Below are positions 774-42,159 of a stretch of DNA of 64,000 nt, piece after piece (the stretch's first letter is position 1; each line of letters opens with the position of its first letter). The DNA lies in assembly GCA_965113315.1 (NCBI GenBank), contig OZ220367.1; one strand, written 5' to 3'. A program made the position numbers and the translations under genes. The notes under the pieces were generated by a model. The model worked only from the letters and a program-made list of their open reading frames with translations. It made no database searches and was not told the DNA's origin. The stretch comes from Podarcis vaucheri (taxonomy: Eukaryota).

Positions 774-1128
774 AGGGAAAGGGAAAGGGACCCCTGACCA
801 TTAGGTCCAGTCGTGGCCAACTCTGGGGTTGCGGCGCTCATCTCGCTTTATTGGCCGAGGGAGCCGGCATACAGCTTCTGGGTCATGTGGCCAGCATGAC
901 TAAGCCACTTCTGGCGAACCAGAGCAGTGCACGGAAACACCATTTACCTTCCTGCCGGAGCGGTACCTATTTATCTACTTGCACATTGACGTGCTTTCGA
1001 ACTGCTAGGTTGGCAGGAGCAGGGACCGAGCAACGGGAGCTCACCCCATCGCGGGGATTTGAACCGCCGACCTTCTGATTGGCAAGTCCTAAGCTCTGCG
1101 GTTTAACTCACAGTGCCACCCACGTCCC
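774..1128 (-). mobile_element. Sauria SINE, full length
   Basis: tRNA-like head with A/B boxes on the minus strand, Sauria body, degenerate (ACCTTT)n-type tail; TSD agttagcaaagta (761-773) / agttaacaaagta (1133-1145). Confidence 0.9.
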
Positions 1129-4706: not shown

Positions 4707-4802
4707 AGTGGCTGGTGTTCCAGTGAAGGAAAGGGTCAAGGTTTCTCAGAACTGGAAGCGTGGACGCTGCCGGAAAATCCCACTCCTCAGATGGAAGCGC
4801 AA
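4707..4802 (+). CDS. FBXW4: FBXW4 exon 2 (96 nt, phase 2-2): VAGVPVKERVKVSQNWKRGRCRKIPLLRWKR(N)
   Basis: Acceptor ctctttctctgcag ends at 4706; matches human VPVKERVKVSQNWRLGRCREGILLKWR; donor AA|gcaagt is needed to keep frame with the next exon. Missed by the ORF track. Confidence 0.93.
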
Positions 4803-6236
4803 GCAAGTGGTTCCTTCTCTTTTCTCCTGCCCCATGATTTTCAGCTAGAATTCTCTCTGTCTTTTGGAGCTCATCCCATTTTTTGTCTCTGTTCAGCTCT
4901 TGCATCTCTTTGGTTACACAGTGTTTGAGCCTCTTTAACTTTTGGCATTCTGAGATTGGGTAGCTGTTGATGCTGCTTTCTCTGCAACCTGCTTTCATTT
5001 GCCAGTACTATAATACCAAAACTCCCTGGATGCTCTGTGTGTCGAGTCATATTCTCAAATTATCAATGAAAGCTCAGTGTCCAAGTTGCTTGCTCCTATG
5101 CAGGAAGAATATCTACAAGCAGAAAGTGGTGAATCAGCTAACTTTAAACAGGAGTGTTTAAAGTTGCTGCTGATAAATTGCTTCTCTTTCCTCTCAGTTC
5201 CAAAAGGATTAAGTGCTTCCTCCCCATCTCTACCCACACCCAGCAAATACCAAGTTGTTACTCATTTGGTTCAGGAAAGTTTTTGCATCTTTCCTCCTTA
5301 ATATAGTGCTCATATTGTGAGGGAATTGCATTGTCCCAGTACTAAAATGGCAGATTTTGTCACTGGAAAAATTGTTTTCCTCCCAGCTAGTGCAAGAACA
5401 TTGAGGAACCTGAGATTCTACTAGGGATGAGTTGCCACCTTTCACGCCTGGACCATTCTTTGATTTCCATGCATTGAATTTTATTATTTTTCTATATTTT
5501 GAGACTGAGTGTTCTCCCCTTCCTCACTATATGCTACTTAAATTAGAGTGGGGGGGGGAATTAAGTAGCATACGGGGTGAGCAGGGAAGACAATATCCAG
5601 TCTCTGATTTTTTAAAATGCTAAACATCACCAAAGTTTCCAGCTCTCCAAAGAACTCCCTGCTTTTACATGGATCACTTATTAACACAATATTTTTCAAT
5701 AATAATTATTTGAGGCTTGTTTGATTCCAAGTCTTTGGATTACAATGATAATAATAATATTATTAATGTTGTGAGCCACCCTGTGATTTTTGGGCGAAGG
5801 GCGGTATAAAACGCAAACAAACAAACAATATATTCTTTGTCCTGCTTTTAGGAGAAACCCCTTTCCAAAGACAGTTAACAAATATAATCATAAAAAGGTA
5901 ACACCATAAATCACATAAAAGCAAAAGTAAAAGCTTTCGCTTCACACCAGCACTAAAATGGCACCATCAGATTAAAATCACAGTACTTGGGTGTGTGTGT
6001 CACATTTTCTTCTGTATATTTTCTTACAGCTTTGCCAAACAGGAGCATAGATACCTCTCCACAGCAAGACTATATATTCTATGGGCTTTGGTGGTTGGGT
6101 TAGAGTTAGTACAAATATATCATGGGATTCTTTAAAAGCATTTGGAAAGGCCTGAAGTTCCATAAGAATTAAGAGTTTAGGATGTTTGCCAACTGTCAGC
6201 ATAGTTTCTAATATTTTAATATATTTTCCCCTCCAG

Positions 6237-6422
6237 TTTAATGCCCTGGATGCAGCTAGATGATGACTACCTCTACCTATCCCAGGCAGAAGACATTCAA
6301 GTTTATTGTCTCCATCCCAATGGTACCAGCTTGCAACACTGTTCCCAAGCAGTCTTCTCTGGCCACCAGGAGGACGTGTGCCGCTTTGTGCTTGCTAATG
6401 GCCATATTGTCAGTGGAGGAGG
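6237..6422 (+). CDS. FBXW4: FBXW4 exon 3 (186 nt, phase 2-2): LMPWMQLDDDYLYLSQAEDIQVYCLHPNGTSLQHCSQAVFSGHQEDVCRFVLANGHIVSGG(G)
   Basis: Acceptor ttttcccctccag, donor GG|gtaagc; ORF 6241..6426; GHxEDV WD40 motif. Confidence 0.96.
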
Positions 6423-7461
6423 GTAAGCTCTTTGTTTTAGGGAAATAAGAAGGAGGGTGATGGTAGTTGAGCATCCAACATTGGTTTATAGGTGCACTTG
6501 AACAAGAGCTGGAAGAACTGACTTTCAGAGCTCCGGCATTGCGTGACTGACTTTTATTTAAAGGATCCCTGTTTGGGATCACTGGGCAAATCAGTCCCCA
6601 TGGCAGGGTGGTGTACATGCTGTGATTCTGCAGAAGTGTGAAATGTTATATGGGGCAACAAAATTAAGTTTCCTGAGAATTTAAGCTTTGTTTTATTTTA
6701 CTTTAAATGGGCAGGCTTCTGGCCCTTACAGCTGCAAGGATATGATCATAAGTTTGCATAATTTATGCATGTGGCTAAATTCAGCTTCTCTTGGTATGGA
6801 GTATGGGTTGCTTAATCACAGCTTGTATTTCTTTTTTAGTATGGCATATACAAACAGCCCTCCCCAGGCCTGTCCTATTGCAAGACTGTGACCAAGACTG
6901 TTAAACCATGTGTGTGCTTTGTTCATTTACCACGTGGGGGTCATGGATTTGCCAAAGAAACCTTTTAGGACATGTGAGCAAGTCCTTTGTTGTCTTCAGT
7001 GGCAAATTGAGTATAGAATGTATATGCTGTATTGGATAAATACTTCCTGAATATCTCTGTATACTAGTTTTTGAAATAAATGAAATGAAAGGGCAAATTT
7101 GCATCAGTTTCTATCATTGTTGTACCTAGGGGTTTTCAAGACCTGTTGGTCTCAGAGGTGAGATCTCTCCTGTCTGCATGTGCTGGGTTGAATGTATGTG
7201 TAGATAATGTGATGTATTTAGGAAATGAAACTACTATTGTGCTGGTATATCTCCAGCTAGAACATGAAGAGCACTTCTACATCATGCTCTCTCAAATCCG
7301 TCTTTTACATTTTCATTGGCAGGGATAATCTGAAGCGGAATTCAGTAAATTGACCCTCAGTGAAGGAGAGTAGTTTTGGATATGAGAAGCTCTCATGCCA
7401 TTTGCCTTGTGGCATTTGTTCCAAGGAGATGCACCTTCTTCACTGTGGTTTTGTTTTTCAG

Positions 7462-7594
7462 AGATGGCAATATTGTCCTTCATAAGCTGAATGGCTCCTT
7501 CAGCTTCAAGTTCTTGGGGCATGAACAGGAAGTGAACTGTGTGGATTGTCAAGGAGCTATCGTTGTGAGTGGTTCACGGGACAGAACAGCAAAA
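7462..7594 (+). CDS. FBXW4: FBXW4 exon 4 (133 nt, phase 2-0): DGNIVLHKLNGSFSFKFLGHEQEVNCVDCQGAIVVSGSRDRTAK
   Basis: Acceptor ttgtttttcag, donor AAA|gtgagt; inside ORF 7376..7699; classic WD40 repeat. Confidence 0.96.
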
Positions 7595-8054
7595 GTGAGT
7601 GTGCATGTCTTGCTTTATACTTATAGGAGTGTGTTTATGGAAAGAAAATCGGAAGATGGAATGGAGGAATACTGTTCTCTTTCCTCTCTTTTGGGTTAAC
7701 AGTTAAACAAACTTTTCAGCTTTGTTGCTGCCCATTTCCAGGATTTTCTTACATCTATACAAGTTTATCTCAAATGTTTCAGACATGGATCTCAGAGCCA
7801 CCTGCCCAAAGTGGAGTAACTAACTACATTTCTCTTGTAACACAAACATTATATAGGCATGCTGAGATTTATGACAGTCAAAAATCAGATTACAGAGTCC
7901 TGTTTCCATTGCCCTTTAAGGCTTCTGTCTGTTAGTTCTTTTGCTGAATTGAGTGGAGGTCAGGATCCCTCGGAGGATAGAATATTTATACAGCCATTTC
8001 TTCCTTCCTTTATAAGATTCTAGGTCTGAAAGAGCATACATGCTTAGTTTAGAG

Positions 8055-8160
8055 CATGTGTTGGGAACCTGTGGCCCTTCAGATGATGAAAGACTACAGT
8101 TCCCATAATCCTTGAAGGTGGATTCCAACAACATTTAGAGGGCCATATGGTTTCTGGCCC
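8055..8160. mobile_element. Degenerate hAT-type MITE related to 20404-20539
   Basis: gggaacctgtggccct...caacaacatttagagggcca inverted arms. Confidence 0.6.
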
Positions 8161-8811
8161 TTGTTGAGAGCCAAAGTTTTCACTGTCTGAGTCATTTTTA
8201 TTTTCCTAGAGAGAGATGGGGAGATGCAAGGTTCTCTCTGTGTGTGTTTTAGCTAGAAATTTAGTTGTGCTAACAGTGATGTGGAGCAACAGCTTATTTT
8301 TTCATGAGCTTTTATTTACTGAGGTTTGGGGTGGCAAGCTGTCGGAGAGAACACATGTAGAGGGATTTAGTGTTTTTCTTCCCCTGACATTACCCTTACG
8401 ATGGAAGAACATTCTTTGGGGTAGTGACCAGGATTAGTCCAGCTTCAGTGAACAGTCCTAGCTTTTCTGATTCTACGCTCCCTACTCTTAGTTTAAGATC
8501 TGGATCTGGGTTTCTCTAGAGCTGCTTTCAATGAGCAGAGCCTTTTGCATGCAACAATTCCCACCCAAGCAGCCAGCAGACTGTGTCTTAACTGATAGTT
8601 TCCTTATGGGGCACTGACCAAATGGTTCTGGCACTGGCCAAATGGTTCTGACAATTTGGAGAGTCAGAAGAAATCCACTAAGAGGATAGGCTGAACAGCA
8701 GCAGAAGAATGTGAAGTGTTTCAAAAGTGTCAACCAGTGGCAAAAATGCTCTATTTGCTGTTTGCTGTTATTTGTATTATGACTCATTGTTTATTGTCAG
8801 CTGTTTGCTTG

Positions 8812-8952
8812 CTTGGAGGTTTTTAAGCAGAGGTTGAATGGCCACCTGTGATATATGCTTTAGTTGAGATTCCTGCATTGCAGGGGGCTGGATTAGATGA
8901 CCCTTGGGATCCCTTCCAACTCTATGATTCTTCTATGATTCTGTGAATCTAT
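8812..8952 (+). mobile_element. CR1 LINE 3' terminal fragment
   Basis: ttggaggtttttaagcagagg...cccttccaactctatgattc with an (ATTCTRTG)n-type tail. Confidence 0.85.
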
Positions 8953-10437
8953 ACTTCCTACCTACGAGAACAATAAAGTGCTGGAACTTCTACAGCTGGT
9001 ATCTTCAACCTTTTCAGACCCAGGATCTACTTTTAGCCCAAACATGATTTGGGAACACATTTCTTAATATTTTACTGTATGTTCAACAATGCTCCTGTTG
9101 TGGCCCATCAGGCTGAGATCTGAATGGAAAAGTAGCTCAGTTTCTGAATTTCAATCACACTGAATTAAACTATCCATTATGTGGAATTCTTTGATGCCCT
9201 GCCACTGGAATCTTGTGACCTTGAGGGCAAAATCCTCAAAGTCAAAGGGAATTCTGCTTTAATTGTGCTCATTGTCTTTTTTTAAAAACCCCAGAAATGG
9301 AATCTGGCTCACCTAACACTCTTCCAGCCTGATCCTTATGAGCAGGGAATTTGCTTTTATTTTTACCAAGTGACATTTTCCTTGTGTTGACTCCTAGCTA
9401 GAAGGGAATCCCTAGTAGGTCTCTAATGGGAACTGTAAGTGCATTGGAGGGATAGTGAGTGTTGATTAGGGCTGAGCTTTGAGTAGCTGCTAATGCACAT
9501 TCCTCATTGATAGGCACCAGATAGCATGCTCCCAGCAATATTTTTAACCTGTATGAGATAGGGGTGCATTAAAAGAGCTCAACTTTTCTGCTGCTTTTGC
9601 TGACACTAGGTGCCAAATTCCCCTCTGACACCGAATAGCCTGCAATCCTGAGCATTATCAACAAACAAACAAATACAACACTCCCAGCTTTGAATTCCCT
9701 TAAGACGTTGGGGGATAGTTGGAGAGGGAATCAGAAACTAAAATCTCAGGATCCAGAAAATGGAAGATGAATTTGTTGGGGGTAGAGGAAAGAAATGATG
9801 GTATTCAAAATGATGTCAGGAACACAAGCTTAAGCTTTATTCAGTATGTCAGTAACGGATTTCTGAAAGCTCATAAACAAGTCACTTTACCCTGGTAATA
9901 AACAATGTGTATTGTGGGAGAACAAGTATTATCAAAGTGTGAATGTGCATTAAGGGATTTGAGCATGTTTTAACAATTAGTACAGAAGGGGGCACTGCAC
10001 GGGAAATTAGACTGCCCCGTTCTCCATGTGTTTCTATTGTTTTGCAACAAACTTGGAGAAAAGGCTTTAAGGATTTGCCCAGACAGGGAACCATAAGAAT
10101 AAAGATGAGATAAAATCTAAATTTGTTCTGACATGCAGACCTTCAACATAATTTGAGCAGATGCATTTCAGATGATTGTTCTCTGCTTTTAGCACCGGAA
10201 CTGGGACTGATTTGGACAGAAGCTGCTACTAATCTCTTCTATCATTTCTTTGCTTAGAAAGCATGCAGTCAAAATATCGCAGGGGTAAAGAAGTTGATTT
10301 AAGTTTACTCTGCTAATTTCAAATTGTGCTCCTAAGATTTCTTTGCAAGGGATCGTTTCCAAACACAGCTGCTGTTAACACTTTTATCTTGTACTTTTTT
10401 GTTGTGTGATGTTCATTTGCACTTTCTCTCTCTCTAG

Positions 10438-10532
10438 GTTTGGTCCTTATCACCAGGCAGAACTGGGCAGTGTTTGCACACTATACAGACTGAAGACCGG
10501 GTCTGGTCCATTGCCATTAGTCCATTATCAAG
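10438..10532 (+). CDS. FBXW4: FBXW4 exon 5 (95 nt, phase 0-2): VWSLSPGRTGQCLHTIQTEDRVWSIAISPLS(S)
   Basis: Acceptor ctctctctctag, donor AG|gtaaca; translated by hand, close to human GQCLHTIQTEDRVWSIAISPL. Confidence 0.96.
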
Positions 10533-12679
10533 GTAACAAGATATAAAAATTGCATTTGAATGTATGCACACCTCATGTTAAATCTGGTTTTTCTTTAGGT
10601 CTAAAGTTCCCTATTATACCAAGTATTCCGGAGGTCTAGAACTCAGCATTTAAGTATCATCAGTTCTGTGACTCAAAACCCTTTTTTGTGTAGAAACAGT
10701 AAATTAGGTAGATAAGAATACTCTATATTTTTTGTGGAATTCAGAGCATTTCCTTCTATTTCTCTTGCCCTTTGGGTTCTAGAAAAAAGAAGTTTGAACT
10801 TGCAGAATACTCTGGTCTGTATGGGTGAAGTCAAGGGGTGCACTGACTTAGATATTGTACCAAATACTTTCTGCATAAGGATCTTTAGTTTTCTTTTTTT
10901 CCCCTCTTCACCCAAAGCTTACACTTGCACAATACCCTTGCAAGTGCCACTTTGGCAAGAGCAGCATTATATCCTCTATGCCTATGAAAGCATAAAAAGT
11001 AAGTTGCACTTTTTTTGTGGGAAGGGACGAGGGTTAGCATTTTGGCTGTTGGCTGATTTTTAATCTTTTCCTTGCCTTTCTGCATTATGCAGTGGGGATC
11101 TGTACACACTCAAAACAACTTAATTGCAAGTAATGGAATGTGATTGAGCATGGGAGTAGTTCTGTCACTCACCGCTGTGTCACAAGCTGTATCCAGTTGT
11201 TGCCACTTGTACAACCACATTCCATATCGCAATTACAATCTGCAAAGTACTGTACAGTACAAAATACAGTGTTTTGCTCAGAAGATTCAAGAGAGAGAAG
11301 GCTTAGAGTGGTTACAGGCTAGCTGTAGCAAGTAGGTCATTATCTAGTAACATGGCCTTTGCCATGAAACATACTATAGATATGATCATACTGTCCCACC
11401 CCCACCCCTGTGTGATATGTTAATACATAGAATTGCTCATGGCGAATCACCAGACCAAGAAACTGAAGAAACAGAAAACTGCAGCAGGTTCAATCAGTTC
11501 ATTTTGCATGCTAATTCCAAAACTAATTAATAGAAAATCCCTGTACAGTTGGAAGATAGGTGGGATTTACAATTAGCTACAACCAATCCGTGGAAGGATT
11601 GGAATGAGAAAAGCTGCTCTTCCTTTAAGTGCAGCATACTCAAGTGCTGTTGGAAGATACAGAACCAAATTTTAAATTGAGACTGTGTTTATGGCACTTG
11701 ACCTCAGAGTTCCTAAGAATACTGTAAAAATAAGCAAATTTCATTTTGATACATTGTACATATGTATTTCCTATATGAAACTTATTCAGTGCTGGTCCCC
11801 TGGCAACGAAAAAAGCAAAATGCAAAGCAGATTCTGTTGTGCATGCTCTGTTGCCAAAGCCCATAGTTTGGTTCTATTTCAGACAGCCTCTTCTGTTGAT
11901 GCTGCAGAATGAAAAAGGTATTTGTACATAAGAACTTGCAGATTCCCTGAAGCTGCTCTGTACCATTGGGGCACCAGAGAACCACTCATTTTCTGTGGGA
12001 ATGTTGATAAGAGTCTTTAAAACACATGGGAGTATCTTCTGGCTACTGTTCTTGTCACAGCTGGGCATCTGTGAACAAAATCTGATGTGTTGGGGAAAGA
12101 TACACAGAGGAAATTAAACTGTTCCAATGAGTTATTTTGTAATCATATTGCTACTCTGCTAATGTTAAGGACTGAATGTTGGCCATAAGTTACAATTGTA
12201 TACAAAAGTCACAAAACTGAACTACACAAGGCTTGAGCAGTGCCTTGTATCTTGAAGATTTGGAAGCGCTTTGTACCCTGACTCAACTTTTATTTTGAGG
12301 TATTTAACCTCAAAAGCAGCTTGCAGCAAGGTAGTTATTCTTTGAGGAAGCTCATTTTCTGTTGTGAATTACAATGAGCTTTTCTGTGGCAAACTTGTCT
12401 TATATTTGAAGCAGAGCCTAGTTTTTTCACAAGTTTTTGGAACCTTGCATTAGGCTGTTGAGAATCAAAGCATCCAATTATGCTAAATTGAACATTGTCC
12501 TGTTGTGATGACTGGTTCTCCCTCTCTTGTGTATATCATCGTAGTCATCAGTATTCAGTTTCAGTTTATTAAAGCAGTGAAATCAAATTACAGTCACAGG
12601 AATAGGATGGGTACTGAGAACTATAGATGAATGATGGAACAACAACAACAACAACATCTCTGGTGTCAAAGGCTAGGGT

Positions 12680-13020
12680 AAAGAAAGGAATCCTTTATGG
12701 GGAAGGCCCTCTCCTGGGGCACCACCCCTCAAACCTCTGAGGGTGGTGGAATTACCAAGACGGCTCCTTCTGTTAACACCCGTGAGGGTTTGTGGGGAAG
12801 GAGGTGGTATTTAAGATATTTGAAACCTAAGTCATTTAGGGCTTTGAACACTAATGTGAGCACCTTGAATTAGGCCTCTTGTATGCATTCTAAGGGAACC
12901 TCAGCGATCTGGCTGCTGCATTTTGAACCAGCTGAAGTTTCCAAGTCGTCTTCAAAAGTAGCCCCACAAAGAACACATCACAATAATCCTATTTGGAAGT
13001 TACCAAGGCATGGAGTACCT
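12680..13020 (-). mobile_element. L2-like LINE fragment (3' part of ORF2)
   Basis: Reverse complement of the aattcaaggtgct...aaagccctaaatg motif also seen at 37430 and 42020. Confidence 0.6.
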
Positions 13021-13449
13021 TGACCTTGTTGTCCTTTACTGGTTCACATCAATTGCTTGAATTTAGTGTTCATTCCCTCAGTTCAGGAAGGCTGGAGCTG
13101 TTGCTTTAGTGATGAAGCTGTTCAGATTAGGAGCTGGGTGCTCATTCCTTTCCTGGCTCTCAGCCAGGCCCTGATTCAGGCAGGTGCTTTCACCTTTTCC
13201 CTCTCTTCCTAAGTAACCTCACATGCAGCTATCTGGTAACGCTGGTGTGCTCCCAAATCTCTTGTGTTGCTCACCATCTCCTCTTCTCATATGGCCCTGG
13301 GTGAAATGTGGGTGTTGCTTGATGGCTGGCTTGGAGCCCAGATGTGTGGTGGTCTCCAGACTTGGAGCAGGCATGTCTATATTCAACAGCTCTTCTGAGT
13401 TACTGGGTTACTGAGATCTACTTAGGAGACACACTCTCCTCCCACCCCA

Positions 13450-13820
13450 TTTTCATTTTCATTTCACACTGTATTTTACAACATTACAAATAAAGAAATA
13501 CACAATTTTTATTGACTCCATTTCTCCCTTTCCACTACATATTCTAATTTCTCCCTCTATCTTATTTTTGTCTTCATAGCTCATTAAATTTTTTCACTGC
13601 TGAATTTATTCTGTTACTGTTAACCTCTTAATATGTTTACAATATGTCTTTAAGTATGCCATACAACATTTCCAATCTTCCTCAAATAGTTTTTTTTTAT
13701 CTTGATCTCTTATTCTGTTTGTCAGTCTTGCCATTTCTATATATTCTATTAACTTTGTCTGCCTTTCTTCCTTCATTGATATTGTATCTTCCCTCCATCT
13801 CTGAGCATAAGGAAACATGC
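13450..13820 (-). mobile_element. L1-like LINE 3' end (ORF2 C-terminus plus 3' UTR)
   Basis: ORF 13606..13818 (YAQRWRE...KLIEYIEMARLT...FEEDWK...YLKTYCK) resembles squamate L1 ORF2 C-termini; A-rich minus strand. Confidence 0.65.
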
Positions 13821-14229
13821 TCTTCCTCCAAGGAGACCTCAGAGGGCCAAACCCTGGTAATTAGTGAGCACATGCTAGTCTTTTTAAGCACCAAACTGTT
13901 GAGTGGAGACCATTTGGAATGCCCTTTAAATTAGTGAACATAAGAACTATCATAGTGGTGCACGAACCAGTGGATATGTCTGTTTTTTTAAAAATGCATG
14001 TGCATCAGATAGACCAGCACTAAGAGCCTTCAGCCTGCCTGTTCAGAGCTCATCCCCTTAAGCTTTACGCAGTATGCACTGGATGTGCTCCTGTGACTGG
14101 GAGAGCCCTTGCAGAACACTGTTTTATCCTCCTAAGTGATGACCCGCAGGGCTGGCCTCTTGTCAGAACACTGATTTCTCTCCCTGGAGTGAACACACAC
14201 TCTCTGTCACAATATTTACCTAGCTTCAT

Positions 14230-14545
14230 TTCCCCCCCACTGAGTGATAAATGGAAGCTTGCAGAGTGGCTTCTCCATCAGCAATCAGGTTTGGATCACT
14301 CGGCTTGTTTTATGAGACTGCTGATCCCACTGCACCTCTCTTCCCTCCACACCCCTCAAGTATTAGAACCGATTAGCCACGTCATTAATTCTTCAATTTG
14401 ACGGCTGATATAGCAAGGCCTGAAACACGGGCTGACCCTATATAATAGAACCTCTGCTCCTTAACATATTAATGATGGGAGAAGTTAATTAAAATTCCAC
14501 AGAGCGAAGGTGTCGGCTAACCTATAAACCTGTCGCTTCCAAGAA
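14230..14545. promoter_or_regulatory. Candidate conserved non-coding element/enhancer
   Basis: Repeat-free, CpGs retained, TTTTATGA, TAATTA and CACGTCA motifs; lies in FBXW4 intron 5. No alignment done. Confidence 0.4.
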
Positions 14546-16199
14546 AATGTTGCCACTATCCTAGAAGAAAGTGAGTTTGGGGGCAAGAGTGAGTACTCTT
14601 AGTGTAGTGTGAGAGTCCCCCCCACAAGCTAAACTGAATGTTTAATCTCTTTGGGAAGAGTTAACTTTCGGGTGATTCAGTATCCTTGCCTGACTTTAGG
14701 ATCTTTTTCTCCTTTGATCTACATATGTATATATTTAGGATGCTGAATCATTGCCTTTCTGATGGATCCAAACACTATTATTAATAATTGTTAGCAAACA
14801 GAATATTTTTGCTTCAGTCCAAAATACATTTTAGGTTTGATTCATTTGGCTTTTATCTTACAATCAACAAAACTTATAGATCATATGAAAATATTGGGCA
14901 TTCTGTCTCTGCTCAATTAGGATACTTAGTACTGATATGCAGCCACTTCTGTATAGACGTTGTAAGCAGAAACATATCCTTGGATGTGCTTTGGGTCATC
15001 CTGGCTGCACTTGTCTCAGGGTTTCCTCTCCACATTTGTGATACAGATGACTAGGATACCAGCATGTGCTCAATATCCAGCCACTGTGTATGGCAAAGTT
15101 GAATGCACATTTGACTTTCCTCAAGTCCTGTGGACACACTTTCTTGTTTCCACCTGTGTCTGCAGTCTGATCCAGTTGATTATGGGGTGCGTTCCTTGGT
15201 ACTTTGAGCTAATCTGTTTGGCAGTTTTTCATTGCAACAGAGTTTGCCATATTCAATGAGTACTGCTGGATCTTCTCTTGTTATGCTAATCTTTTGTAGC
15301 ACTATGTTTCTAGGCTAACTCCATAATGGCAATATGTTCATCTGCTTCCTCTGCTACTGCAGTGAGGAAACTGAAGTGATGTGTGTTATCTGAATGGAGG
15401 TTTAACTTGCTATTGATGGTGGCAAATGCACTGTTAAGAGCTCAGCTAGATTTGCTGTGGTTCAGTTTGCAGAACTGAGTGCTTCCCCAAATGGACCATA
15501 ATCTAAAGGTTACTATTAAGGTGGAACTGCAGGGCTGTTCCCTACAGATGATTGTTTAGCTATTCCTCCCTCCCCCCCTAAATACTGCAGTAATTTTTCC
15601 AGCTAAACTTTATTCTCCTTTCCATATGATGGGAGCAATATTGTTATATATTTCTGTTTTGATCCTGTTAACCTATTTGCTTAAATCAATAGCTTTAGAT
15701 TTGTTGAATGGTGGAATCTTGTAGAATATTAAAGATTGTGATAGTGATGCCTTCAGAAAATATACTCTTTCATCATAGCAAATGACGGTGCTCACAGGTT
15801 AGAGGGAAAATATTTAAAATGAATTTCTTCTCTCTGCTGAGCTTGTCAGAGCATTGTAATGAGGAGACAACTATTCTGAGAGACATCATTCTGTTAGGAA
15901 GTTGGCAGCTAATGTCAGGTTCTCCTTTAATGTAGTTCCATAGGTTTATGTAGTACAGCTGCTGCTGTGATTTTAATTTCCGATTTCCAGGTGCAGAGGG
16001 TTTTCCTGTGAGGCTAGGGGAGAAACCCATCTCTTCTACCATTTTGCACAGTGAAGGAGAAAATGCCCGTGTTAGTTTCTCCTGTCACATTGATTACAGT
16101 TCAGGGGTCCCACATAAGACTGCAGGTTTCCATTTCCAGTCAGTGATCTTTCTCCTCCATTTTTCAAACTTCCAAGGGGAGGGATGGAGAAGGTAATTT

Positions 16200-16720
16200 T
16201 CCTGGGCCATGGCCACTGTTTACTTTTGCTTGGCTGTGCAGTGTGCCTTTGTTTTTCCACCTTTGATCAGTGTCCTGCCAGCAGATAATTTAGCAATTGC
16301 ATCCCAGGGTGGAAGTGTGGAGTTAATGTTAAAATTAGTTTTTTTTTAACTTCACTGCCTGATGAAGCAGGGAAGCAAGAGGGGAGGCAACGGGGGCCAT
16401 AAATTCTACTGGTGGTGTATCTGCTTCTTGCAAAAAACAGAGAAAGACCCCCTCAAAAACGTAACTCTCTGATGTCTCCACAGCACTTTCATTAACATTT
16501 AAATTAAGGGTTTGTTTTTCAGCAACTAGGCCTTTCATGGCCTGACTCGTGCAAGGCTGCCTCACTAGTCAGCTACAATAGTAATCATTGCTTTATTTTT
16601 TTTCATCTTTCTCTGGGGAGGGCAGCGACCTGCCAAATGTTCAAAGAGAATCCGCAACAGACCTGCACAGGTACCCAGGCAGCAGGATGCTAGCCTTTCT
16701 CCTTCAATTAGAGAGTTAGT
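16200..16720. promoter_or_regulatory. Candidate conserved non-coding element/enhancer
   Basis: TCF/LEF CTTTGAT 16261 and TTCAAAG 16640; Hox/Cdx CCATAAA 16397; several TAAT cores. Confidence 0.4.
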
Positions 16721-17256
16721 TGTTGTCCATGTTTCTTGTCTTTTTTCCTCTTCCCTTCAAAGGCTTGTTTGGGGCCCATTTGGTATGTGATTGCCTCAGG
16801 TGTAACCAGCACTGGACACCCTTTAAACAAGAACTCATGAGGATGAAGGGTGTATATGGAAAGTGGGAAAGAAGTTTTGAGTGCTCTTTCTCAGCACTGC
16901 TGCCAGCTTCTAAATATGTTAAAACTTGTGTGGGTGAGCTCTTGAGAGGATAAGTTTGTTGGGAGTGTATATCAGAGTGAGCTAAAGAAAACGGGGGCAG
17001 GAAATTGAGCTTTGATGTATATAAATTGCACAGGCATTTTGGTGCTGCAATTTATTTCCAATACAGGACAGCAAATTAGGGCATGCTTAGCAAACTATGT
17101 GGAAACTGTTTTAAAGGCTCAAGTATAGACATCAGGATTGTTCTGGAAGGAATGTTTCATGTTCCAGTAAATAGTGTCTGAAACATGCTGTGCTAATCTC
17201 ATATCATGTGTTGAATCATGTGTTGGCCTAGGGCAAATAACTATCTGGATTTTACA

Positions 17257-17314
17257 CTTGTAGACTGAGAATTTATTCCTTGTAGACTGAGAATTTATTC
17301 CTTATAGACTGAGA
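17257..17314. repeat. 22-bp tandem repeat, about 2.6 copies (cttgtagactgagaatttattc)
   Basis: Read directly: 17257-17278, 17279-17300, partial 17301-17314. Confidence 0.9.
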
Positions 17315-18340
17315 GCCCAAAATATCTTACTACATTAGAGTTATTACATAACTGTTTTTTCCTAAAGACTGAGAACAAAGCACTCTTCTATCAAAATACC
17401 CTAATTTTATGTGTCCTTTGAGCCCCTAAGAACCACGTCACATTATGGTAGAAGCCACAACATGCCAGAAGATGATACTGGGGAGGCAGTTATTTATTTT
17501 GTTTGTTCTTCTGCTGCCTATTCAAGCAGAAATAATCTGGAAATATACAGGAAAGGGAGCATGCTAAACTTGAAGAGATCTGACATTAGTCATAATATTA
17601 AGCACCTGCCATGCAGCCGTATTTCTCTTGGGCCTTTGTGGCCATGCGGTGCCAATTGCCTTCTAAAGCAGTTTCATTTAGTGAGCAGTGTCATGTGACC
17701 AAACTGTTTTGGTAGCCCACGTGTTGCATCAGTTCCAGGAAACCTGATCAGAACTTCAGGCATTTACAGTAACAAGGAGGTGAAAGCTGCCAGCCAGTGT
17801 CTCTGCAGGTGCTAGCTGGATCGAGTTGCAGGGCTGCCATTAAAACTATCCTGTCTGGTGATTAATGTAGGACACAGGACATACACATTCTTATTCTGAC
17901 TCCGTGAAGACCTGTTCTGAAAGCTAAATTGGTCTCTGAATTGCAAGGTTTCCCTGCTCTTTTATATTGTCAACTGTTTGTTTGCCTTGAGTGAGTCTTG
18001 TTGAACAGCTTTATCTTCCGTGCCCTGTTGCAGTTGTATAATCTTTCTGTATCACCTTCAGCAATGGCAAACTGATGTTGGGCCATGTAAACAGCTTGTT
18101 TATATGGCATGTTTTTCATGTAGTAACTTTATCTTTGTTCTCCAGCTTTCAACAATTATGAAGGAACATGGTTACATAACACATTTTCATAAGCAAGAGC
18201 TGCTTGTGTGAATTGGGACAAACAGTTTTGTAGGTATTTGGAGACAAAGCTTTTAGATTGAGATTCTCTCTTTTAAGAGGCACGTAGGATCTCAGGTGTT
18301 GCTTTCTGAGATTGGGACCTGAGTGTCTTGTATGACCCTG

Positions 18341-19911
18341 GTGGTAAGGAAATACCTGGCTACTTTAAATGAATTCAGATCTCCAGGACCTGATGAACTG
18401 CACCCAAGGATACCAAAGGAACTTGCAGATTTAATCTTAGAGCTTATGTTTATGATCTTTGAGAATTCTTAGAGAACAGATGAGGTTTCTGCAGACTGGA
18501 GGTGGGCAAATGTTCATCTTCAAAAATGGAGAAAAGGAAGACCCAGGAAACTACCAGACAGTCAGCTTGGATGTTAATACCAGGCAGCCAGATAAATCTC
18601 ATTTCTTTTTTTGATAGAGTTACAAGCTTGGTGGATCAGGGGAATGCTGTGGACTTAGTGCATCTTGATTTCAGTAAGGCTTTTGACAAGTCCCTAAGAT
18701 ATTCTTGCATATAAGCTAGTAAAATATGGGCTAGACCAGGTACCTGTTAGGTGGATTTGTAGCTGGTTGACTGACTGAACCCAAAGAGTGCTCACCAACA
18801 GTTCCCCATAATCCTGGGGGGGGGGGGAAATGACAAGTAGGGTGCCACAGAGTTTTGTCCTGGGCCTGTTGCTGTTTGACACCTTTATTACTTGCATGAA
18901 GGAATTGAGGGGATGCTCATCAGATTTGCAGATGACACCATAGGTGGATTTAGGGTAGTGCAACCAGTGCTGCTGCACTGGGTGCTTAGCCTAGCGAGTG
19001 CCACAGGGTATCACAACTATGCAGAACAGAAGGTGAGGGGGTGTGGACACCAAATTTTGGACTCATATAGGACACTGCTGAAATTTGAAAGACCAAAGTC
19101 TGTCCCTGGTGACATCAAACTGGGAATAGTAGCTAATAGTGCAGAAGGCAGAATTGGGTTTCCACGTGATCTTAACAGATTGGAAAACTAGGCCAAAACT
19201 AATAAAACACATATCCACAGGGGGAAATGTAAGGTTCTACACTTAGGCAGGAAGAAAGAGCTGCACAAATATAAGATGGGGACACCTGGCTTGCCTATAC
19301 TACATCTGAAAAGGATATAGGGGTCTTAGGCTGCATCAATAGAAGTATAATGTCTTGATCAAGGATAGTAATAGTTCTGCTCTATTTTGCCTTCGTCATA
19401 TCACAGGTGGAGTACTGTGTCCAGTTTTGGGAACCACAGTTTAAGAAAGTTATTGACAAGCTGGAATGTGTACAGAGGAGGGCAACCAAGATGATCAAGG
19501 GCCTGGAAATCAAACCTTATGAGGAATGGTTGAGGGAATTGGGAATGTTTAGCCTGGTAAAGAGGAGACTGAGAAGAGATATGATAGCCATCTTCAAATA
19601 TCTAAAGGGCTGTCACATGAGGATGGAGCAAGCTTGTTTTCTCCTGCTCTGTAGGGTAGGACTTGAACCAATGGCTTCAAATTACAAGACAGGAGATTCT
19701 TTCTGACAAGATCAGGAAGAGCTTTCTGACAGAGCTGTTCAACAGTGGAACAGAGTCCCACAAGAGGTGGTGGACTTTCCTTCCTTGAAGGTTTTGGAGA
19801 TTTAATGGCCATCTATCATAAATGCTTTAGTCGAGATTCCTGCATTGTAGAGGGTTGGAATAGATGACCCTCAGAGTTCCTTCTAACTGTAACATCCTAT
19901 GGTTCTATGAT
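18341..19911 (+). mobile_element. CR1 LINE, 5'-truncated and decayed (RT through 3' tail)
   Basis: ORF remnants [70 protein letters not shown]; frameshifts and deletions; CR1 tail. Confidence 0.93.
18939..19108. mobile_element. About 170-bp MITE-like insertion inside the CR1 RT, just after the FADD codons
   Basis: CR1 sequence gcagatgacac|caaactggg is interrupted; 7-8 bp degenerate duplication (g)atgacac / (g)gtgacat; weak TIRs cataggtggattt / aagtctgtccctg. Confidence 0.65.
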
Positions 19912-20403
19912 GTAAAGAAACACATCAGTCTCAATAACACAGATGAACTGTGTTATTAAAGATAGCAGAAATCTTTGGGCACCCCGCAAAGCACTTATGC
20001 CTATTTTGAGCTAGTAGGACCTTGAATCTGACTCAGTTTGGAGATTGTTAAACATTTTTTTCTCCCGTCATAATTATAATAATGTATTTCACTATATGCT
20101 GTGTATATTAATGACTCACCTATAGTGTTGAGAGTACATGATGACACATTTCTAGAAAATCTTCTTCCTCCAACAAATCACCAGACTGAGGATTGTTTCC
20201 TGTGTATGCTAAAGTGATTGATGCCTTGCTTGAAAGTGTAGATTGTCTGGTCCAGAAAATATGTGAAGCAAATAGCATGTTCTTCATAGTTACTGTGGTG
20301 GTGATGTGCTGTATACTATGAGGAGAGACAAAGGGTAACTTTGGGAACTCTTTAGAAGTGTGGACCCCAGGCTCTCGTTTGACTTGCATATGTGCCCCTA
20401 GAT

Positions 20404-20539
20404 CAGGCAGGGGCAAACTTGGCCCTCCAGATGTTTTGAGACTACAATTCCCATCATCCCTGACCTCTAGTCCTGTTAGCTAGGGATGGTGGGAGTTGTA
20501 GTCCCAAAACATCTAGAGGGCCGAGTTTGCCTATGCCTG
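20404..20539. mobile_element. hAT-type MITE (136 bp), young
   Basis: Near-perfect fold-back arms caggcaggggcaaacttggccctccagatgtttt / aaaacatctagagggccgagtttgcctatgcctg; perfect 8-bp TSD ccctagat (20396-20403, 20540-20547). Confidence 0.92.
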
Positions 20540-21029
20540 CCCTAGATGTTAGTTGGTTGTTGTCACAGGACTTCACTTGCTTTTGAACCAGTTGCTCAGA
20601 TCTGAGGAAATACTCTTCTCCCCACCTTAATTGAATGCTCTGTTCACTTGTTGCAACTAAGTGACTTCTGAGCAGGCCTAGCTTCAGCTTCTGGCACCCT
20701 GAGGCAGCTGCTGCGGTCCAGCATCCTGACAGAAGCCATTGGTGCTGATGCCTGGCCTGGGGCTCCCAGGCCAGGCAGCTATCAACCACTATTTTGAATT
20801 CCCACAGTGTCCTGGAGCTCCCAAAACTGCAGTTTCCCAGGGTATTTAGAGAAATTTTGGGTGGTGACTTCCCAGCTGGCTGCTGCTGCCACCAGGTAAA
20901 CTTGCAGTCAGGTGTGACCCACCTACATAGGAAGGGGACCACCGGGTGGCACTGGCTGGCCTTGCCCCTGGGAAAAACAATATCGGGGTACAGCCTTCTC
21001 CCTCTGTATTTGTGGCATAGTTCCACCTT

Positions 21030-21860
21030 CCCCTGTGGCTTATAAAGGTCTAATGACTCTTTGATTAAATGTAGGTCAAAATTTTCTACATTGTGACCTT
21101 AATAAGTGGGGATGATTGGCAGACAGCCTTGGCAGAAAGGGCGGCCCGTCCCTTTCATCTCCTCTAGTGTCGCTTGGAGACAATGGGCTCAGCATATTTT
21201 CCTTGTTGTTCCTCCTTTGAAAAGGGCCTGGTATCTCTACTAGGTACCTGTGTCATGGGGGTCTTGATTGGGGTCTCATAAAGGGCCTTGCCAGTGTGTC
21301 CAAAGGCCAAGAAGACAAAAGCGATCAGTGGGTGGGGGTCTCAGCTGACCGCCAAGAAGGGAGGGGAGGTTCTTGGAGGCAGTGAAGGGAGAAGCAGCCC
21401 CTGTTGGGAGCTCTTCTAGAGGGGAGGGGGAGAGGAGTGGCCCATTTTTGTCCCAAACTCATCAAGCACATCTGCAGAATTGTCCCAGCTGCTGCCTTCC
21501 AGTTTCAAAAGAAAATGATCGTTTGATAAACCGGCCTGATTTACCGCTTTCTCACAAGGGAGGGAGGCCCACCTTTGACCTCTATGATTTCACATCAGAC
21601 CCGGCTTTTCTTTCCCCTTCCAGTTCTTGGAGAAACTTTGAAATGCATCCCTTGCTTTCTCTCTCTTTCTCTCCCTCTCCCCCTTTACTCTTCTCTGCCC
21701 TTCGCTTTGTTGGGGGGGGGGCAGCGGCGGGAGGAGAACAGGCGTGCGGCTTTGGACTTTAGGAAAGTAATTAGTAAAATCTTCCTGCAGCACAATAAAC
21801 ACTCAGCACCCATCCTGTATATTCCCACCATTTACATGCTTGTGGGCATCCGAGAGAACA
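21030..21860. promoter_or_regulatory. Candidate TCF/LEF-rich enhancer
   Basis: Five CTTTG(A/T) sites, GC-rich with CpGs retained, no repeats. Confidence 0.5.
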
Positions 21861-23274
21861 GGTGGCATTCTTACTGCAGTGTATCTTTTGCCGGCACCCT
21901 CTGTGCCTCTGTGCCTGCTAACTATAGGAATGTGCATGAATATATTAAAATATTTTCACACAATGCATGTATTTTCCAGTGGGAAAAGACATCTCTTGGA
22001 TGAAAGGCAGTGGGCCCCACTGGAGCGCTTGTTCCCACTCGGGTGCTTGTTCACATGGACTAGATAGAAAAGTGTGTTTGGGAGACAGGGGAATAGATTT
22101 CCTCTGGGAAGAGCAAAGCTTTGTGTTCCCTACCCATTCCTCATGTTTTTGGGGGCATAGTACATGGGATTTGAGCAACCGATCATTATTTTGACTACCT
22201 TCTTTTTTGAGGGGGCAGGCAGAAACAGCTGCAGTTCAAAATAGTCCTACAATTCATGCTTTTTTGGGTAGAACAGGCAAGTGCAGAGATAAATCAGGAT
22301 ATATTGGGGTTGAGCTCTTAATGCTTGTTTATGCTCTTAGAGCAGTACACGTAATAGCAGAGGAAGTATTCTAAGAGCTTTCCAGTCTTTCTGTAACTGG
22401 TCACGGAGGAACTTGTGACTGTGCATGACATATAAGAAACATACAACTACATGCCCATTGCATGCAGTTGTATGTTTCTGGTACTGTATGTTGTGCAGTT
22501 ACAAGTTCCATTTCAAATGTTCTGAAATCTTCTGCCAAGGACGCCCAATATAGTACCATAGTGGATTGTTTTAAATCAGGAAAACATGGGCAATATCAAT
22601 AAAATGTATGGCTTTTTAATTTATATGTTTCCTGAACATGCTCACATACAGTTAAGGCACATCTGTTTGCAACTAAGTAGAACTTCTAAGCTATGCAGAA
22701 GCAGAATCTAAAATCTATGCTCATCCACTGCAGAACTTGTATTTGCTTCAGAATGCAATTGTAAAATTAAGGATTTCCCTTTAATTCTCTCTGTGCACTT
22801 GTAAGGACACTAAACAAAATCATGTGTACTTGAAGACTTGTGCTGAGAACTTTCCAGAAGCAAGGGCTGAGTGTTGTTTGGAAGAACAGTATTCCCCATC
22901 ACACAGAAACTAAAAGTCTGTGCTGTTTGGTTCCCAGCCTAAATTTTCATGATTTGCCTAATAATAAATATATTATCTATTGTTATTTATTTATAGTGCT
23001 TGATCTCAGAAGTTACATTCCCTTCACAAGTTCCTTAAAACCTGTTTTTCTCTGTATCTCAATGGGCCTTTTCAGATGTGGTGCTACAATGTGGTTAGCA
23101 TTTACACGAATGATCCTTGGATTTATGAACCCCTATCTCCTCTTCTGAGGCGGCAGTGATATCAGAAGCATCTCCCTCTGTTTTTGAACTAACCGTAGTC
23201 CCCCAGGTTTAGACATAACAGGAATATGGGAACCTCATTCTGCATCAACTGCAGCTTTCGGACTGTCCTTGAGG

Positions 23275-23490
23275 GCTGCCCCACTTAGACTGCATTACAA
23301 TAGTCTAAATGTGAGGTTATCAGAGTGTAAACTGTTGTTAAACTATCCCAGTCCAGGAAAAGCTGTAGCTGGCAAAAAAGCCATAGCTGGGAATAGGCAC
23401 TTCTAGGCCTCAGTGGCCTCAATGACACTATATTCCTTTGGAGGGAGTGCAGCTCCATCCAGAATATGCCATTGTGGGAATCTTCCACAA
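23275..23490 (-). mobile_element. L2-like LINE RT fragment
   Basis: ORF 23285..23497 ends SLTTVYTLITSHLDYCNAV, resembling the L2 motif VHALVTSRLDYCNAL. Confidence 0.75.
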
Positions 23491-23763
23491 TCTGCACCTC
23501 TGTCTTGTCAGGATCCAGGTTTATTGGCCCTTTTCAATCTAGATACTGCTCCAGCAGTTGGTGCAAAATTGTATTTGGCACACAATGTTATCAGTTTACA
23601 GAGGAAATGTAGATGCCACACATCTTCAAACAATTCTAAAATCCTCTTGGAAGAGCACATGGTCTGGGAAAATACTTCTGTCTGAATCCCTGGAGCGTTA
23701 CTGTCGGTCAGTGTTGACACTGCTAAGCTAAATAAGCTAATGGTATAAGGCAGCTTCATATGT

Positions 23764-24767
23764 TCATAGAATCATAGAATTGTAGAGTTGGAAGGAACTC
23801 CAAGGGTCATCTAGTCCAACCCCCTGCAATGCAGGGTTCTCAACTAAAGCATCCATGACCGATGGCGATCCAACCTCTGCTTTAAAACCTCCAAGGAAAG
23901 AGAGTCCACCACCTCTTGTCAGAATGTTTAGTTGGAATCTCCTCTCTTGTAACTTGAATCCATTGGTTTGGCTCCTAGCCTCCAGAGCAGGAGAAAACAA
24001 CCTTACTGCATCCTTCCCATGACAATCCTTTAGATATTTGAAGATAGTTATCATATCTCATCTCAGTCTACTCTTTACCAACTCCCTCAACCATTCTTCA
24101 CAAGGCTTGATTTCCAGACCCCTTATCATGTCCTCAGCATACGTTCCAGCTTGTCAGTATCCTTCTTAAACTGTGGTGCTCAGAATTGGATACAGTACTC
24201 CAGGTGTGGTCTGGCCAAGGCAGAATAGAGTGGGACTATTAATTCCCTTGATCGGGACACTATATTTCTATTGATGCAGCCTAGAATAGCATTCACTCTT
24301 TTTTTGCTGCTGCATCACATGGTTGACTCATGTTAAGCTTGTGGTCTACTAAGACCCCTAGATCCTTTTCACATGTACTGCTGTCCAGCCAAGTGTCCTC
24401 CATCTTATATTTGTGCATACGGTTCTTCCTGCCTAAGTGTAGAACATGACATTTGTCCCTAATTAAATTCATTTTGTTAGTTTGGGCCCAGTTCTCCAAC
24501 TTGTTACGGCCATCTGGAATTCTGATTCTATCTTCTGCGGCATTGGCTACCCCTCTCAGTTTTGTGTCATCTGCAAATTTGATGAGCATACCCTCAATAC
24601 CTTCATCCAAGTCGTTCGTAAAGATGTTGAACAACAAGACCTAGGACAGAACCTCATGACACCTGACTCATCATTTTTCCCCAGGATGACGAGGAACTGT
24701 TAGTGAGCACTCTGGGTTTGGTCAATCAACTGGCTACAAATCCACTTAACAGTAACCTCATCCAGTC
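23764..24767 (-). mobile_element. CR1 LINE, 5'-truncated
   Basis: ORFs 24293..24637 ([26 protein letters not shown]...) and 23764..24054; catagaat tail at 23764. Confidence 0.95.
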
Positions 24768-24874
24768 TTGTGTCAAGGAACCCCTTAGAGACTTTTGAAA
24801 TCAGAAAACCTGACTTTTGCCTGAAAGTAAGCCCTATAAATGTTGGGAAACTTGCTTTCACTAATAGGAATTGG

Positions 24875-24965
24875 TCCACTGAAAGGTAGAGGGATAATAT
24901 CTTTATAAGGCCAACAAACAAAATAGTGACAATTGTGAGCAAGCTTTCAAGTTCTCCAGAACACA
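24875..24965. mobile_element. Penelope-like element terminal fragment
   Basis: tctttataaggccaac...gcaagctttcaagttctccagaac resembles reptile PLE pseudo-LTR ends as recalled. Confidence 0.45.
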
Positions 24966-25079
24966 TTAGACATTATGCAATGGAGGAGAGGTGGGACAGA
25001 GCGAAAAAATTAGAAAACTGGCTTGGTGTTAAAGCCATAACTTCTGCATTTAGTCACAGACTTAGAGTGTGAGAAGTAG

Positions 25080-25117
25080 TACCATATTTAATATATTAAA
25101 TACCATATTTAATATAT
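25080..25117. repeat. 21-bp tandem duplication (taccatatttaatatattaaa)
   Basis: Read directly. Confidence 0.85.
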
Positions 25118-26334: not shown

Positions 26335-26552
26335 AGAGCTGGTGCAGCATAGTGGCTAAGTGCCTAAGTTCTAGGCAAGAAGTCCTTGGTTCAAATCTTA
26401 CCACAAGCTGCTAGGTAGCCTTAGCCAAGCCACAATTCTCACTGGTTGTATTTGGCTAATGATATTGCCCCACTATAGAGGTCAGTTGTTTCAGCATAAC
26501 TGAGGGGATACATGTGAAGTGCTCCAAAAACAAAAAAATGCTCTATATAAAT
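26335..26552 (+). mobile_element. Old tRNA-derived MIR/CORE-like SINE
   Basis: A box agcatagtggctaag, B box ggttcaaatc, core ggtagccttagccaagcc, tail tgtgaagtgct...gctctatataaatg. Confidence 0.6.
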
Positions 26553-30959: not shown

Positions 30960-31580
30960 GTGGCTAAAAGAACCTTGGCTAATTATGCTGGACTGAAAAT
31001 TACCACTTTGCCCTGCGCTCCTGCTGCTGGGACTATTTGTTCAGGGGCTGTATTTAGTGGGAACAAAGCTCCCCTGCAGAGTGTCCAGCCCCAAGTATGA
31101 AGCTACAGGTAGAAGCTTTAAAATAAAGGGGGTAATTACCAATGTCTCCAGGTGAAAGCCCACTAAACTTCAATAGCCCGATATAGCCTTGGGGGAAGAG
31201 GGGAGAATCCCTCCTCCTCAAATAAACGATTCCTGCCAGGCAATTAAGGGAAAATAATGTCACCCAGTGGAAGGGGGGGGAGTGAACTGCTGCTTAGAAA
31301 TTGTGGCTTTTTTCTTGCGCTTGTTTGTCATTGGGTGGGGAAATAAAATGCCTTCCTTGAGGAGGGAGGGAGGATTCCCACAAATATATCCCAACCTCCC
31401 TGCTTGTTAAGTGGTTTGAATGTACCTAGTGGGGAGCAAGAGAGGGAGGGAGAGTGAGAACAAATAAGTCACAAAAAGGAATCGCTGGAGCTTTACACCT
31501 GAGCAAGCTTTGAAAAATTCAACAATGCCATTCACTGCCTCTTGTAAGGTGCTTTACATGAGGACCCATCTGATCAGTTG
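30960..31580. promoter_or_regulatory. Candidate conserved non-coding element/enhancer
   Basis: TAATTA twice, CAATTA, and adjacent TCF (31508) and Sox (31521) sites. Confidence 0.45.
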
Positions 31581-42152: not shown

Positions 42153-42159
42153 ACGTTTA

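What the first reader, a model, noticed from the sequence alone, without database searches (positions are those of the whole stretch)
4707..10532. Exons 2-5 would form a 510-nt circRNA with an endless, stop-free ORF
Seen: exons 2-5 are 96+186+133+95 = 510 nt (170 codons), packed into 5.8 kb between long introns. Exon 5 ends with AG (phase 2) and exon 2 starts with A, so a back-splice gives AGA (Arg) and reads ...AISPLS-R-VAGVPVKERV... in the native frame. That frame has no stop anywhere in the circle and has in-frame ATGs (MPWMQ, 6241). Established: long flanking introns favour back-splicing, and circFBXW4 has been reported in mammals (from memory; exon content needs checking). Inference: rolling-circle translation could yield an F-box-less WD40 concatemer. 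Frame symmetry alone follows from intron phase and does not prove function.
Basis: partly seen in the sequence, partly recalled or inferred. Interest (0 to 1): 0.7.

Follow-up and report, generated by a model that had tools for sequence, protein, structure and literature searches.

The report
Lizard FBXW4 exons matching known circFBXW4
These are four ordinary coding exons of the lizard FBXW4 gene, the same 510-base block that forms a well-known circular RNA in human and mouse; the lizard likely circularises it too, but the stop-free reading frame follows from where the introns fall and likely makes no useful protein.

Summary
Observation confirmed. Exons 4707-4802, 6237-6422, 7462-7594 and 10438-10532 total 510 nt, RNA reads show their linear splices (intron 2 is GC-AG), and the host frame is stop-free around a hypothetical circle. 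The gene is FBXW4 of a Podarcis-like lizard. The same exon 2-5, 510-nt circle is already validated in human (RNase R, 2012) and mouse. The lizard architecture suits back-splicing: introns of 13.4 and 36.5 kb flank the block and share an inverted 351-bp, 91%-identical repeat. No back-splice read was found here, but the available libraries look poly(A)-selected and are a weak test. The endless ORF is not special: 16 of 28 internal exon blocks of this gene are equally stop-free because 6 of 8 introns are phase 2, 14% of human circRNAs have such ORFs, and humans also make a frame-breaking 415-nt exon 2-4 circle. Both AUGs have weak context, the repeat unit cuts a WD40 blade, and FBXW4 is absent from a 2,721-spectrum junction-peptide table. 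Caveat: the junction codon is Arg, a trypsin site that hides the peptide. Verdict: known circle, probable lizard counterpart (unshown), translation unsupported but not excluded.

The parts
4707..4802 (+). FBXW4 exon 2 (96 nt); would be the back-splice acceptor exon; encodes aa 76-107, F-box-to-propeller linker; GC donor
   Evidence: (GC..AG joint in 18/38/14 reads)
6237..6422 (+). FBXW4 exon 3 (186 nt); holds the only in-frame ATGs of the circle, 6241 and 6250, both with T at -3 and C at +4
7462..7594 (+). FBXW4 exon 4 (133 nt); ends in phase 0
10438..10532 (+). FBXW4 exon 5 (95 nt); would be the back-splice donor exon; ends in phase 2 after the first strand of the fourth WD40 blade
778..1128 (+). 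High-copy interspersed repeat (SINE-like; the name Sauria SINE is recalled, from no call) in intron 1, 3.6 kb upstream of exon 2; one arm of the best inverted pair
   Evidence: 351 bp, 90.6%, 485 bits against 38903-39253; 3,611 first-look candidates in the genome, 40 scored, 93-100%
38903..39253 (-). Inverted copy of the same repeat in intron 5, 28.4 kb downstream of exon 5; candidate pairing partner
32257..32629 (+). Third, older copy in intron 5; can pair with 38903-39255 inside intron 5 (78.5%, 289 bits) and would compete
20400..20548 (.). Short palindromic repeat in intron 5 that matches (116 bp, 84%) an inverted copy in intron 1 upstream of the window; second candidate pair
10533..47035 (+). 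Intron 5, 36,503 nt, downstream flank of the block
47036..47101 (+). FBXW4 exon 6 (66 nt), the normal splice partner of exon 5; supplies strands 2-3 of the blade that exon 5 begins
   Evidence: (contigs of X3 and X9 run from 10532 into it)
63639..63779 (+). FBXW4 exon 7 (141 nt)

Best explanation
These are coding exons 2-5 of lizard FBXW4, spliced linearly into the mRNA as reads show, and likely also back-spliced in part into a 510-nt circle that likely stays untranslated, as the matching mammalian circFBXW4 appears to. Shown: exon bounds, linear splicing, phases, intron sizes, the inverted repeat pair. Inferred mechanism: the three short internal introns (1.0-2.8 kb) are removed quickly while the exon-5 donor waits for 36.5 kb of intron 5 to be transcribed; meanwhile it can attack the exon-2 acceptor, helped by pairing of inverted repeat copies in introns 1 and 5. 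The endless ORF is a side effect of introns 1 and 5 both being phase 2. With no cap and only weak AUG contexts the circle would rarely load ribosomes, and any product would be a misfolded repeat (linker + 3 blades + 1 orphan strand) likely degraded.
For: Linear splices in 3 of 3 raw runs and in 3 of 3 contig sets that hold the exons. Same exon 2-5, 510-nt circle in human and mouse; RNase R-resistant and among the most abundant scrambled transcripts; 12,434 junction reads in ENCODE. Intron sizes 13,409 and 36,503 nt; introns 1 and 5 carry the strongest cross-intron inverted match in the gene (485 bits; next 150). 16 of 28 blocks stop-free; 14% of human circRNAs have a host-frame rolling-circle ORF; human also makes a 415-nt exon 2-4 circle, not a multiple of three. 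FBXW4 has 0 rows in the 2,721-spectrum junction-peptide table, where ABHD12 and PFAS are found. In about 500 human Ribo-seq sets only circUBXN7 showed in-frame junction enrichment among top-1,000 circles with 10 or more reads. Back-splice cuts blade 4 after its first strand.
Against: No back-splice joint was listed in any of 3 raw runs or 5 contig sets, so the lizard circle is unshown. The best inverted arm lies 28 kb from exon 5 and has a competitor inside intron 5; inverted pairs of 200 bits or more occur in 39 of 69 overlapping placements of the same geometry. One cross-species study found few circles shared at orthologous exons. The negative translation data are human and weak: the junction Arg is a trypsin site and the MS filter needed 2 residues on each side; the Ribo-seq paper does not say whether circFBXW4 reached 10 reads. 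Rolling-circle ORFs make up about half of MS-detected circle peptides.
Confidence: 0.65

Rival explanations
1. The block is only linear coding sequence in this lizard; no appreciable circle is made, and the mammalian circle depends on mammal-specific repeats.
For: No back-splice joint in 3 raw runs with 70 exon 2-3 and 121 exon 4-5 junction reads in total; contigs of X1 and X9 run unbroken from exon 1 through exon 5 into exon 6. Shared circles often arise independently through young lineage-specific repeats (PMC8516420, passages). The inverted arm is distant and has a competitor.
Against: Intron depth in the raw runs is about 0, which suggests poly(A) selection; scrambled junctions are tenfold depleted in such fractions. 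Only 12-13% of each run was read and a joint needs 3 reads to be listed. Architecture and exon sizes match the mammalian locus.
Confidence: 0.22
2. The circle is made and is translated by rolling circle at low level, giving an F-box-less concatemer that is degraded and has no selected role.
For: Stop-free frame with two AUGs. Circles made only of coding sequence can be translated in reporters, and products of circPSAP and circPFAS rise with proteasome inhibition. Back-splicing puts A at -3 of the first full codon of exon 2, GUG in the lizard and AUG in human.
Against: No FBXW4 row in the MS table; no junction phasing in Ribo-seq for circles as a class; plasmid-based evidence can come from linear concatemers. 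m6A-type DRACH motifs are not enriched (10 against 8.6 +/- 2.7).
Confidence: 0.1
3. The circle is translated into a functional WD40 concatemer that binds FBXW4 substrates without an F-box and acts as a dominant-negative decoy.
For: The unit lacks the F-box (aa 17-60) and holds three whole blades; exon sizes give 510 nt in lizard, mouse and human.
Against: The unit ends one strand into blade 4 and restarts in the linker helix, so repeats cannot stack in register (my reading of a model with mean pLDDT 68). The residue after the junction is not a conserved start: A 30, V 17, F 5, L, E, Y 1 each, M 0 among the 55 of 96 homologs that could be parsed. Frame conservation is explained by the linear protein. 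The frame-breaking 415-nt circle is also made in human.
Confidence: 0.03

Closest known systems
Human circFBXW4 (hsa_circ_0008362, chr10:103427642-103436193) and mouse circFbxw4 (mm9_circ_000338)
   Same: Same gene, same exons 2-5, same 510 nt; junction codon is Arg in human too, read from the published junction siRNA aligned to the lizard exon end; exon-2 acceptor and long upstream intron fit the general pattern.
   Different: Lizard circle not observed. Human has AUG as first full codon of exon 2, lizard GUG. Flanking repeats are a lizard element. Reported mammalian roles are microRNA sponging (miR-338-5p, miR-18b-3p; titles and passages), not tested here.
Rolling-circle ORF (rcORF) circRNAs: circPSAP, circPFAS, circABHD12 (PMC9242994)
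   Same: Length a multiple of three, no stop in the host frame, in-frame start codon.
   Different: Those have junction MS spectra and tagged-reporter ladders; FBXW4 is not in that table.
FBXW4 (F-box/WD40 protein; the alias dactylin and the SCF adaptor role are recalled)
   Same: Exon 3 peptide 98% identical to Podarcis muralis FBXW4; 9 exons give a 399-aa F-box + WD40 protein.
   Different: None; this is the ordinary orthologue.

Membership tests
FBXW4 orthologue | N-terminal F-box followed by WD40 repeats, high identity to FBXW4 | tested here: met
   (Pfam on close homologs P0012 and P0001: F-box-like 17-60, WD40)
Exonic circRNA (circFBXW4) | Orthologous exon 2-5 block of 510 nt with working splice sites | tested here: met
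Exonic circRNA (circFBXW4) | Back-splice junction reads (exon 5 donor to exon 2 acceptor) | tested here: inconclusive
   none listed in 3 raw runs and 5 contig sets; libraries look poly(A)-selected, 12-13% read, 3-read listing threshold; 2 of 5 contig sets lacked the exons
Exonic circRNA (circFBXW4) | RNase R resistance / covalent closure | not testable with these tools
   shown for human and mouse in papers, not for lizard
Exonic circRNA (circFBXW4) | Long flanking introns with reverse-complementary matches | tested here: met
   13.4 and 36.5 kb; 351 bp at 90.6% and 116 bp at 84%; common by chance
Exonic circRNA (circFBXW4) | Junction not explained by a genomic tandem duplication or retrocopy | tested here: met
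   exon 3 has 1 match in the genome; the 22-nt junction pattern has 0 exact matches
Rolling-circle-translated circRNA (rcORF) | Length a multiple of three and no stop in one frame | tested here: met
   also true of 16 of 28 blocks
Rolling-circle-translated circRNA (rcORF) | Cap-independent initiation element or favourable start | tested here: inconclusive
   AUGs 6241 and 6250 have T at -3, C at +4; DRACH count at chance level; a GUG with A at -3 and G at +4 arises at the junction; IRES-like hexamers not scored
Rolling-circle-translated circRNA (rcORF) | Junction peptide by MS or phased junction footprints | not testable with these tools
   no lizard data; human tables negative but weak

The most novel reading that the evidence does not exclude
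circFBXW4 is an amniote-wide circle, shared by lizards and mammals, that is translated by rolling circle from a start codon whose context is improved by the back-splice itself (A at -3 of AUG in human, of GUG in the lizard), and it has escaped proteomics because the junction codon is a trypsin-cut Arg in both lineages.
Probability: 0.07. Interest if true: 0.65.

Novelty: already known. Interest (0 to 1): 0.2.

Why it matters
As it stands it matters little: the circle is known in mammals and a stop-free frame is common. A lizard back-splice read would extend one of the more abundant human circles to squamates with a different set of flanking repeats, a useful case for the question whether shared circRNAs are conserved or convergent. 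If translation were shown, human circFBXW4 (abundant, 510 nt, AUG next to the junction) would be a clean endogenous test of rolling-circle translation, which is disputed, and the microRNA-sponge readings of its overexpression phenotypes would need a translation control.

Tried and rejected
No RNA holder on record was listed by the run search; same-species-label runs were laid instead. Back-splice search in raw runs X19-X21 and contigs X1, X3, X9, X10, X23 found none; X10 and X23 had no exon cover at 95%. The loose-end tables were cut (336 and 29 rows not shown), so 1-2 junction reads could be hidden. Alternative exon-2 donors: GT at 4807 or 4810 would shift the frame and has no reads; rejected. 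Genomic duplication or retrocopy as source of the junction: rejected. Rfam over the window: 0 hits. DRACH enrichment: none. Literature: no paper with FBXW4 + circular RNA + infinite ORF; one unrelated review for FBXW4 + rolling circle translation; one search listed 30 of 3,780 papers, none with circFBXW4; one review for FBXW4 + chicken + back-splicing, without a bird circle; two irrelevant papers for lizard + back-splice + RNase R (listing only); none for FBXW4 + GC-AG. Supplements of PMC8516420 (26 kB held) and of riboCIRC PMC7938571 (21 kB held) have no FBXW4 row but are too small to hold full circle lists, so they say nothing. One spreadsheet and one scanned PDF of PMC9242994 could not be read, and Table S2 of PMC6487579 was cut before any mouse sheet; these may bear on the translation and mouse-abundance claims. 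Earlier scan findings: none. The concatemer was not folded; only a natural full-length homolog was.
Full report
1. Observation. The four exons are at 4707-4802, 6237-6422, 7462-7594 and 10438-10532 (96+186+133+95 = 510 nt), each after an AG acceptor; exon 2 ends at a GC donor, the others at GT. Raw RNA reads of a closely related lizard (four exonic base differences) confirm all three linear splices in 3 of 3 runs: exon 2-3 with GC..AG ends in 18, 38 and 14 reads, exon 3-4 in 10, 10 and 8, exon 4-5 in 46, 43 and 32 (the tool places the last joint two bases left with the same 2,843-nt skip). Read as a circle, the host frame has no stop, the other five frames have 6-9 per turn, the junction codon is AGA, and the in-frame ATGs are 6241 and 6250.

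2. The gene. The exon-3 peptide is 98% identical to Podarcis muralis FBXW4, and the named hits among 96 are FBXW4 or unnamed proteins of vertebrates. Exon 3 has a single match in the 1.6-Gb genome. With 40 kb upstream and 20 kb downstream fetched, nine exons give an uninterrupted 399-aa protein. Exon 1 (F-box; Pfam 17-60 on close homologs) lies at L002:1074-1297, upstream of the window. Introns measure 13,409, 1,434, 1,039, 2,843, 36,503, 16,537, 162 and 980 nt with phases 2,2,2,0,2,2,2,0.

3. Is the endless ORF more than chance? No. With 6 of 8 introns in phase 2, 16 of the 28 possible internal exon blocks are multiples of three, and all 16 are stop-free. An exon that ends in AG at phase 2 can only make Ser or Arg at any junction. 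In human, 14% of full-length circRNAs carry a host-frame rolling-circle ORF (PMC9242994, passages). Human FBXW4 also yields a 415-nt exon 2-4 circle that breaks the frame (PMC3270023, passages); the lizard exons 2-4 sum to 415 as well.

4. Is the circle real? In mammals, yes and long known. Human circFBXW4 is exons 2-5, 510 nt, confirmed by Sanger, RNase R and actinomycin D (PMC11095154, passages and supplement); mouse likewise (PMC7163456, passages); it was among the most abundant scrambled transcripts in 2012 and resisted RNase R; it has 12,434 junction reads at row 155 of an ENCODE table, against 1,102 for a shorter circle with the same acceptor, probably exons 2-4 (PMC6487579 Table S2). 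A pig circ-FBXW4 is named without exon content (PMC10122348, passages). In the lizard I could not show it. No joint that goes back from 10532 to 4707 was listed in the three raw runs or in five contig sets; three of those five hold the exons, all as linear contigs. The test is weak: intron depth near zero suggests poly(A) selection (inference), scrambled junctions are tenfold depleted in such fractions, 12-13% of each run was read, and a joint needs 3 reads to be listed.

5. Architecture. Of all intron pairs, introns 1 and 5 have the strongest cross-intron inverted match: 778-1128 against 38903-39253, 351 bp, 90.6%, 485 bits; the next are 150 bits (introns 4-5) and 72 (5-6), and introns 1-6 have none. 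A second 1-5 pair is 116 bp at 84%. Against this: the downstream arm is 28 kb from exon 5, a third copy at 32257-32629 can pair with it inside intron 5 (289 bits), the element is high-copy (3,611 first-look candidates), and the same geometry slid along the 124 kb finds an inverted pair of 100 bits or more in 57 of 69 and of 200 or more in 39 of 69 placements, which overlap and are not independent. The architecture permits a circle but does not prove one. A five-mammal study argues that shared circles often arise convergently from young repeats (PMC8516420, passages). I put a detectable lizard circle at about 0.75.

6. Translation. Both AUGs have T at -3 and C at +4; DRACH motifs are at chance level, 10 against 8.6 +/- 2.7. 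FBXW4 has no row in a table of 2,721 junction spectra from 646 genes, where the control names ABHD12 and PFAS are found. In about 500 human and 1,300 mouse Ribo-seq sets junction reads spread evenly over frames, and among top-1,000 circles with 10 or more reads only circUBXN7 was enriched (PMC6487579, section 10 read whole); circFBXW4 probably belongs to that top 1,000 (inferred from its row and count), but its read number is not given. Reported circle translation is open to plasmid and MS artefacts (bioRxiv 10.1101/2020.12.10.418848, passages). Points in favour must be kept: rolling-circle ORFs are about half of the MS-detected cases; the junction codon is Arg in lizard and in human (read from the published siRNA), so trypsin cuts there and a filter needing 2 residues on each side (section 26 read whole) would see only missed cleavages; and the back-splice puts A at -3 of the first full codon of exon 2, AUG in human and GUG in the lizard. 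That gain is automatic for any phase-2 donor ending in AG, and the codon is not conserved as a start: A 30, V 17, F 5, L, E, Y 1 each and no M among the 55 of 96 homologs that parsed, a set in which I saw no placental mammal.

7. Would the product fold? An AlphaFold2 model of the collinear 399-aa python homolog (38 sequences; mean pLDDT 68, 85-94 over residues 151-250, below 50 over 63-108) shows strand groups at 111-148, 154-187 and 193-230, then one strand at 234-240, with the next two strands (246-252, 260-264) encoded by exon 6 (blade grouping is my reading). The 170-aa, 19-kDa unit (aa 76-245) is therefore linker, three blades and one orphan strand. Repeats cannot stack in register, so a stable propeller concatemer is unlikely (inference; the concatemer itself was not modelled).

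8. Mechanism and verdict. Shown: exons, linear splicing, phases, intron sizes, repeats. Inferred: partial back-splicing because the exon-5 donor waits on a 36.5-kb intron while inverted repeats bring the ends together; little or no translation. Confidence 0.65; rivals: no circle in the lizard 0.22, translated but degraded 0.10, functional concatemer 0.03. The circle is already known; the lizard case would be a further member; translation of circFBXW4 was not found in print in the searches made, nor a reptile or bird circle. Interest 0.2.

Noticed in passing
window 4803-6236 (intron 2): GC-AG intron confirmed by reads. It looks conserved: 13 of 96 homolog gene models from birds, a turtle, a monitor lizard, a cobra and a frog read through this donor as Lys-Gln, the translation expected of the same GC site, so many annotations mis-splice here. 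No paper found for FBXW4 + GC-AG.
   Followed up: partly
window 47036-47101 (exon 6): 66-nt symmetric exon missing from 5 of the 38 aligned homolog isoforms (and from P0001); skipping would delete two strands of blade 4. Contigs of X3 and X9 include it.
   Followed up: partly
window 8810-8935 (intron 4): Short fragment of a very common repeat; it draws most of the laid reads from elsewhere in the transcriptome and gives the intron 4-5 matches (one search gives counts only, so that link is a guess).
   Followed up: no
window 6418-7468: A few reads (2-3 per run) give joints 6418>7468 and 6421>7468 with non-canonical ends; probably alignment artefacts of the exon 3-4 junction near a variant.
   Followed up: no
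window 18356-46561 (intron 5): Thirteen inverted repeat pairs lie inside intron 5, up to 594 bp at 75% (19329-19911 with 27461-28051).
   Followed up: no
window 63780-63941 (intron 7): Short 162-nt intron, a multiple of three but with an in-frame stop, so retention would truncate the protein.
   Followed up: no
L007:1001-3000: CpG-rich stretch about 10 kb past the FBXW4 stop codon, probably the promoter of a neighbouring gene.
   Followed up: no
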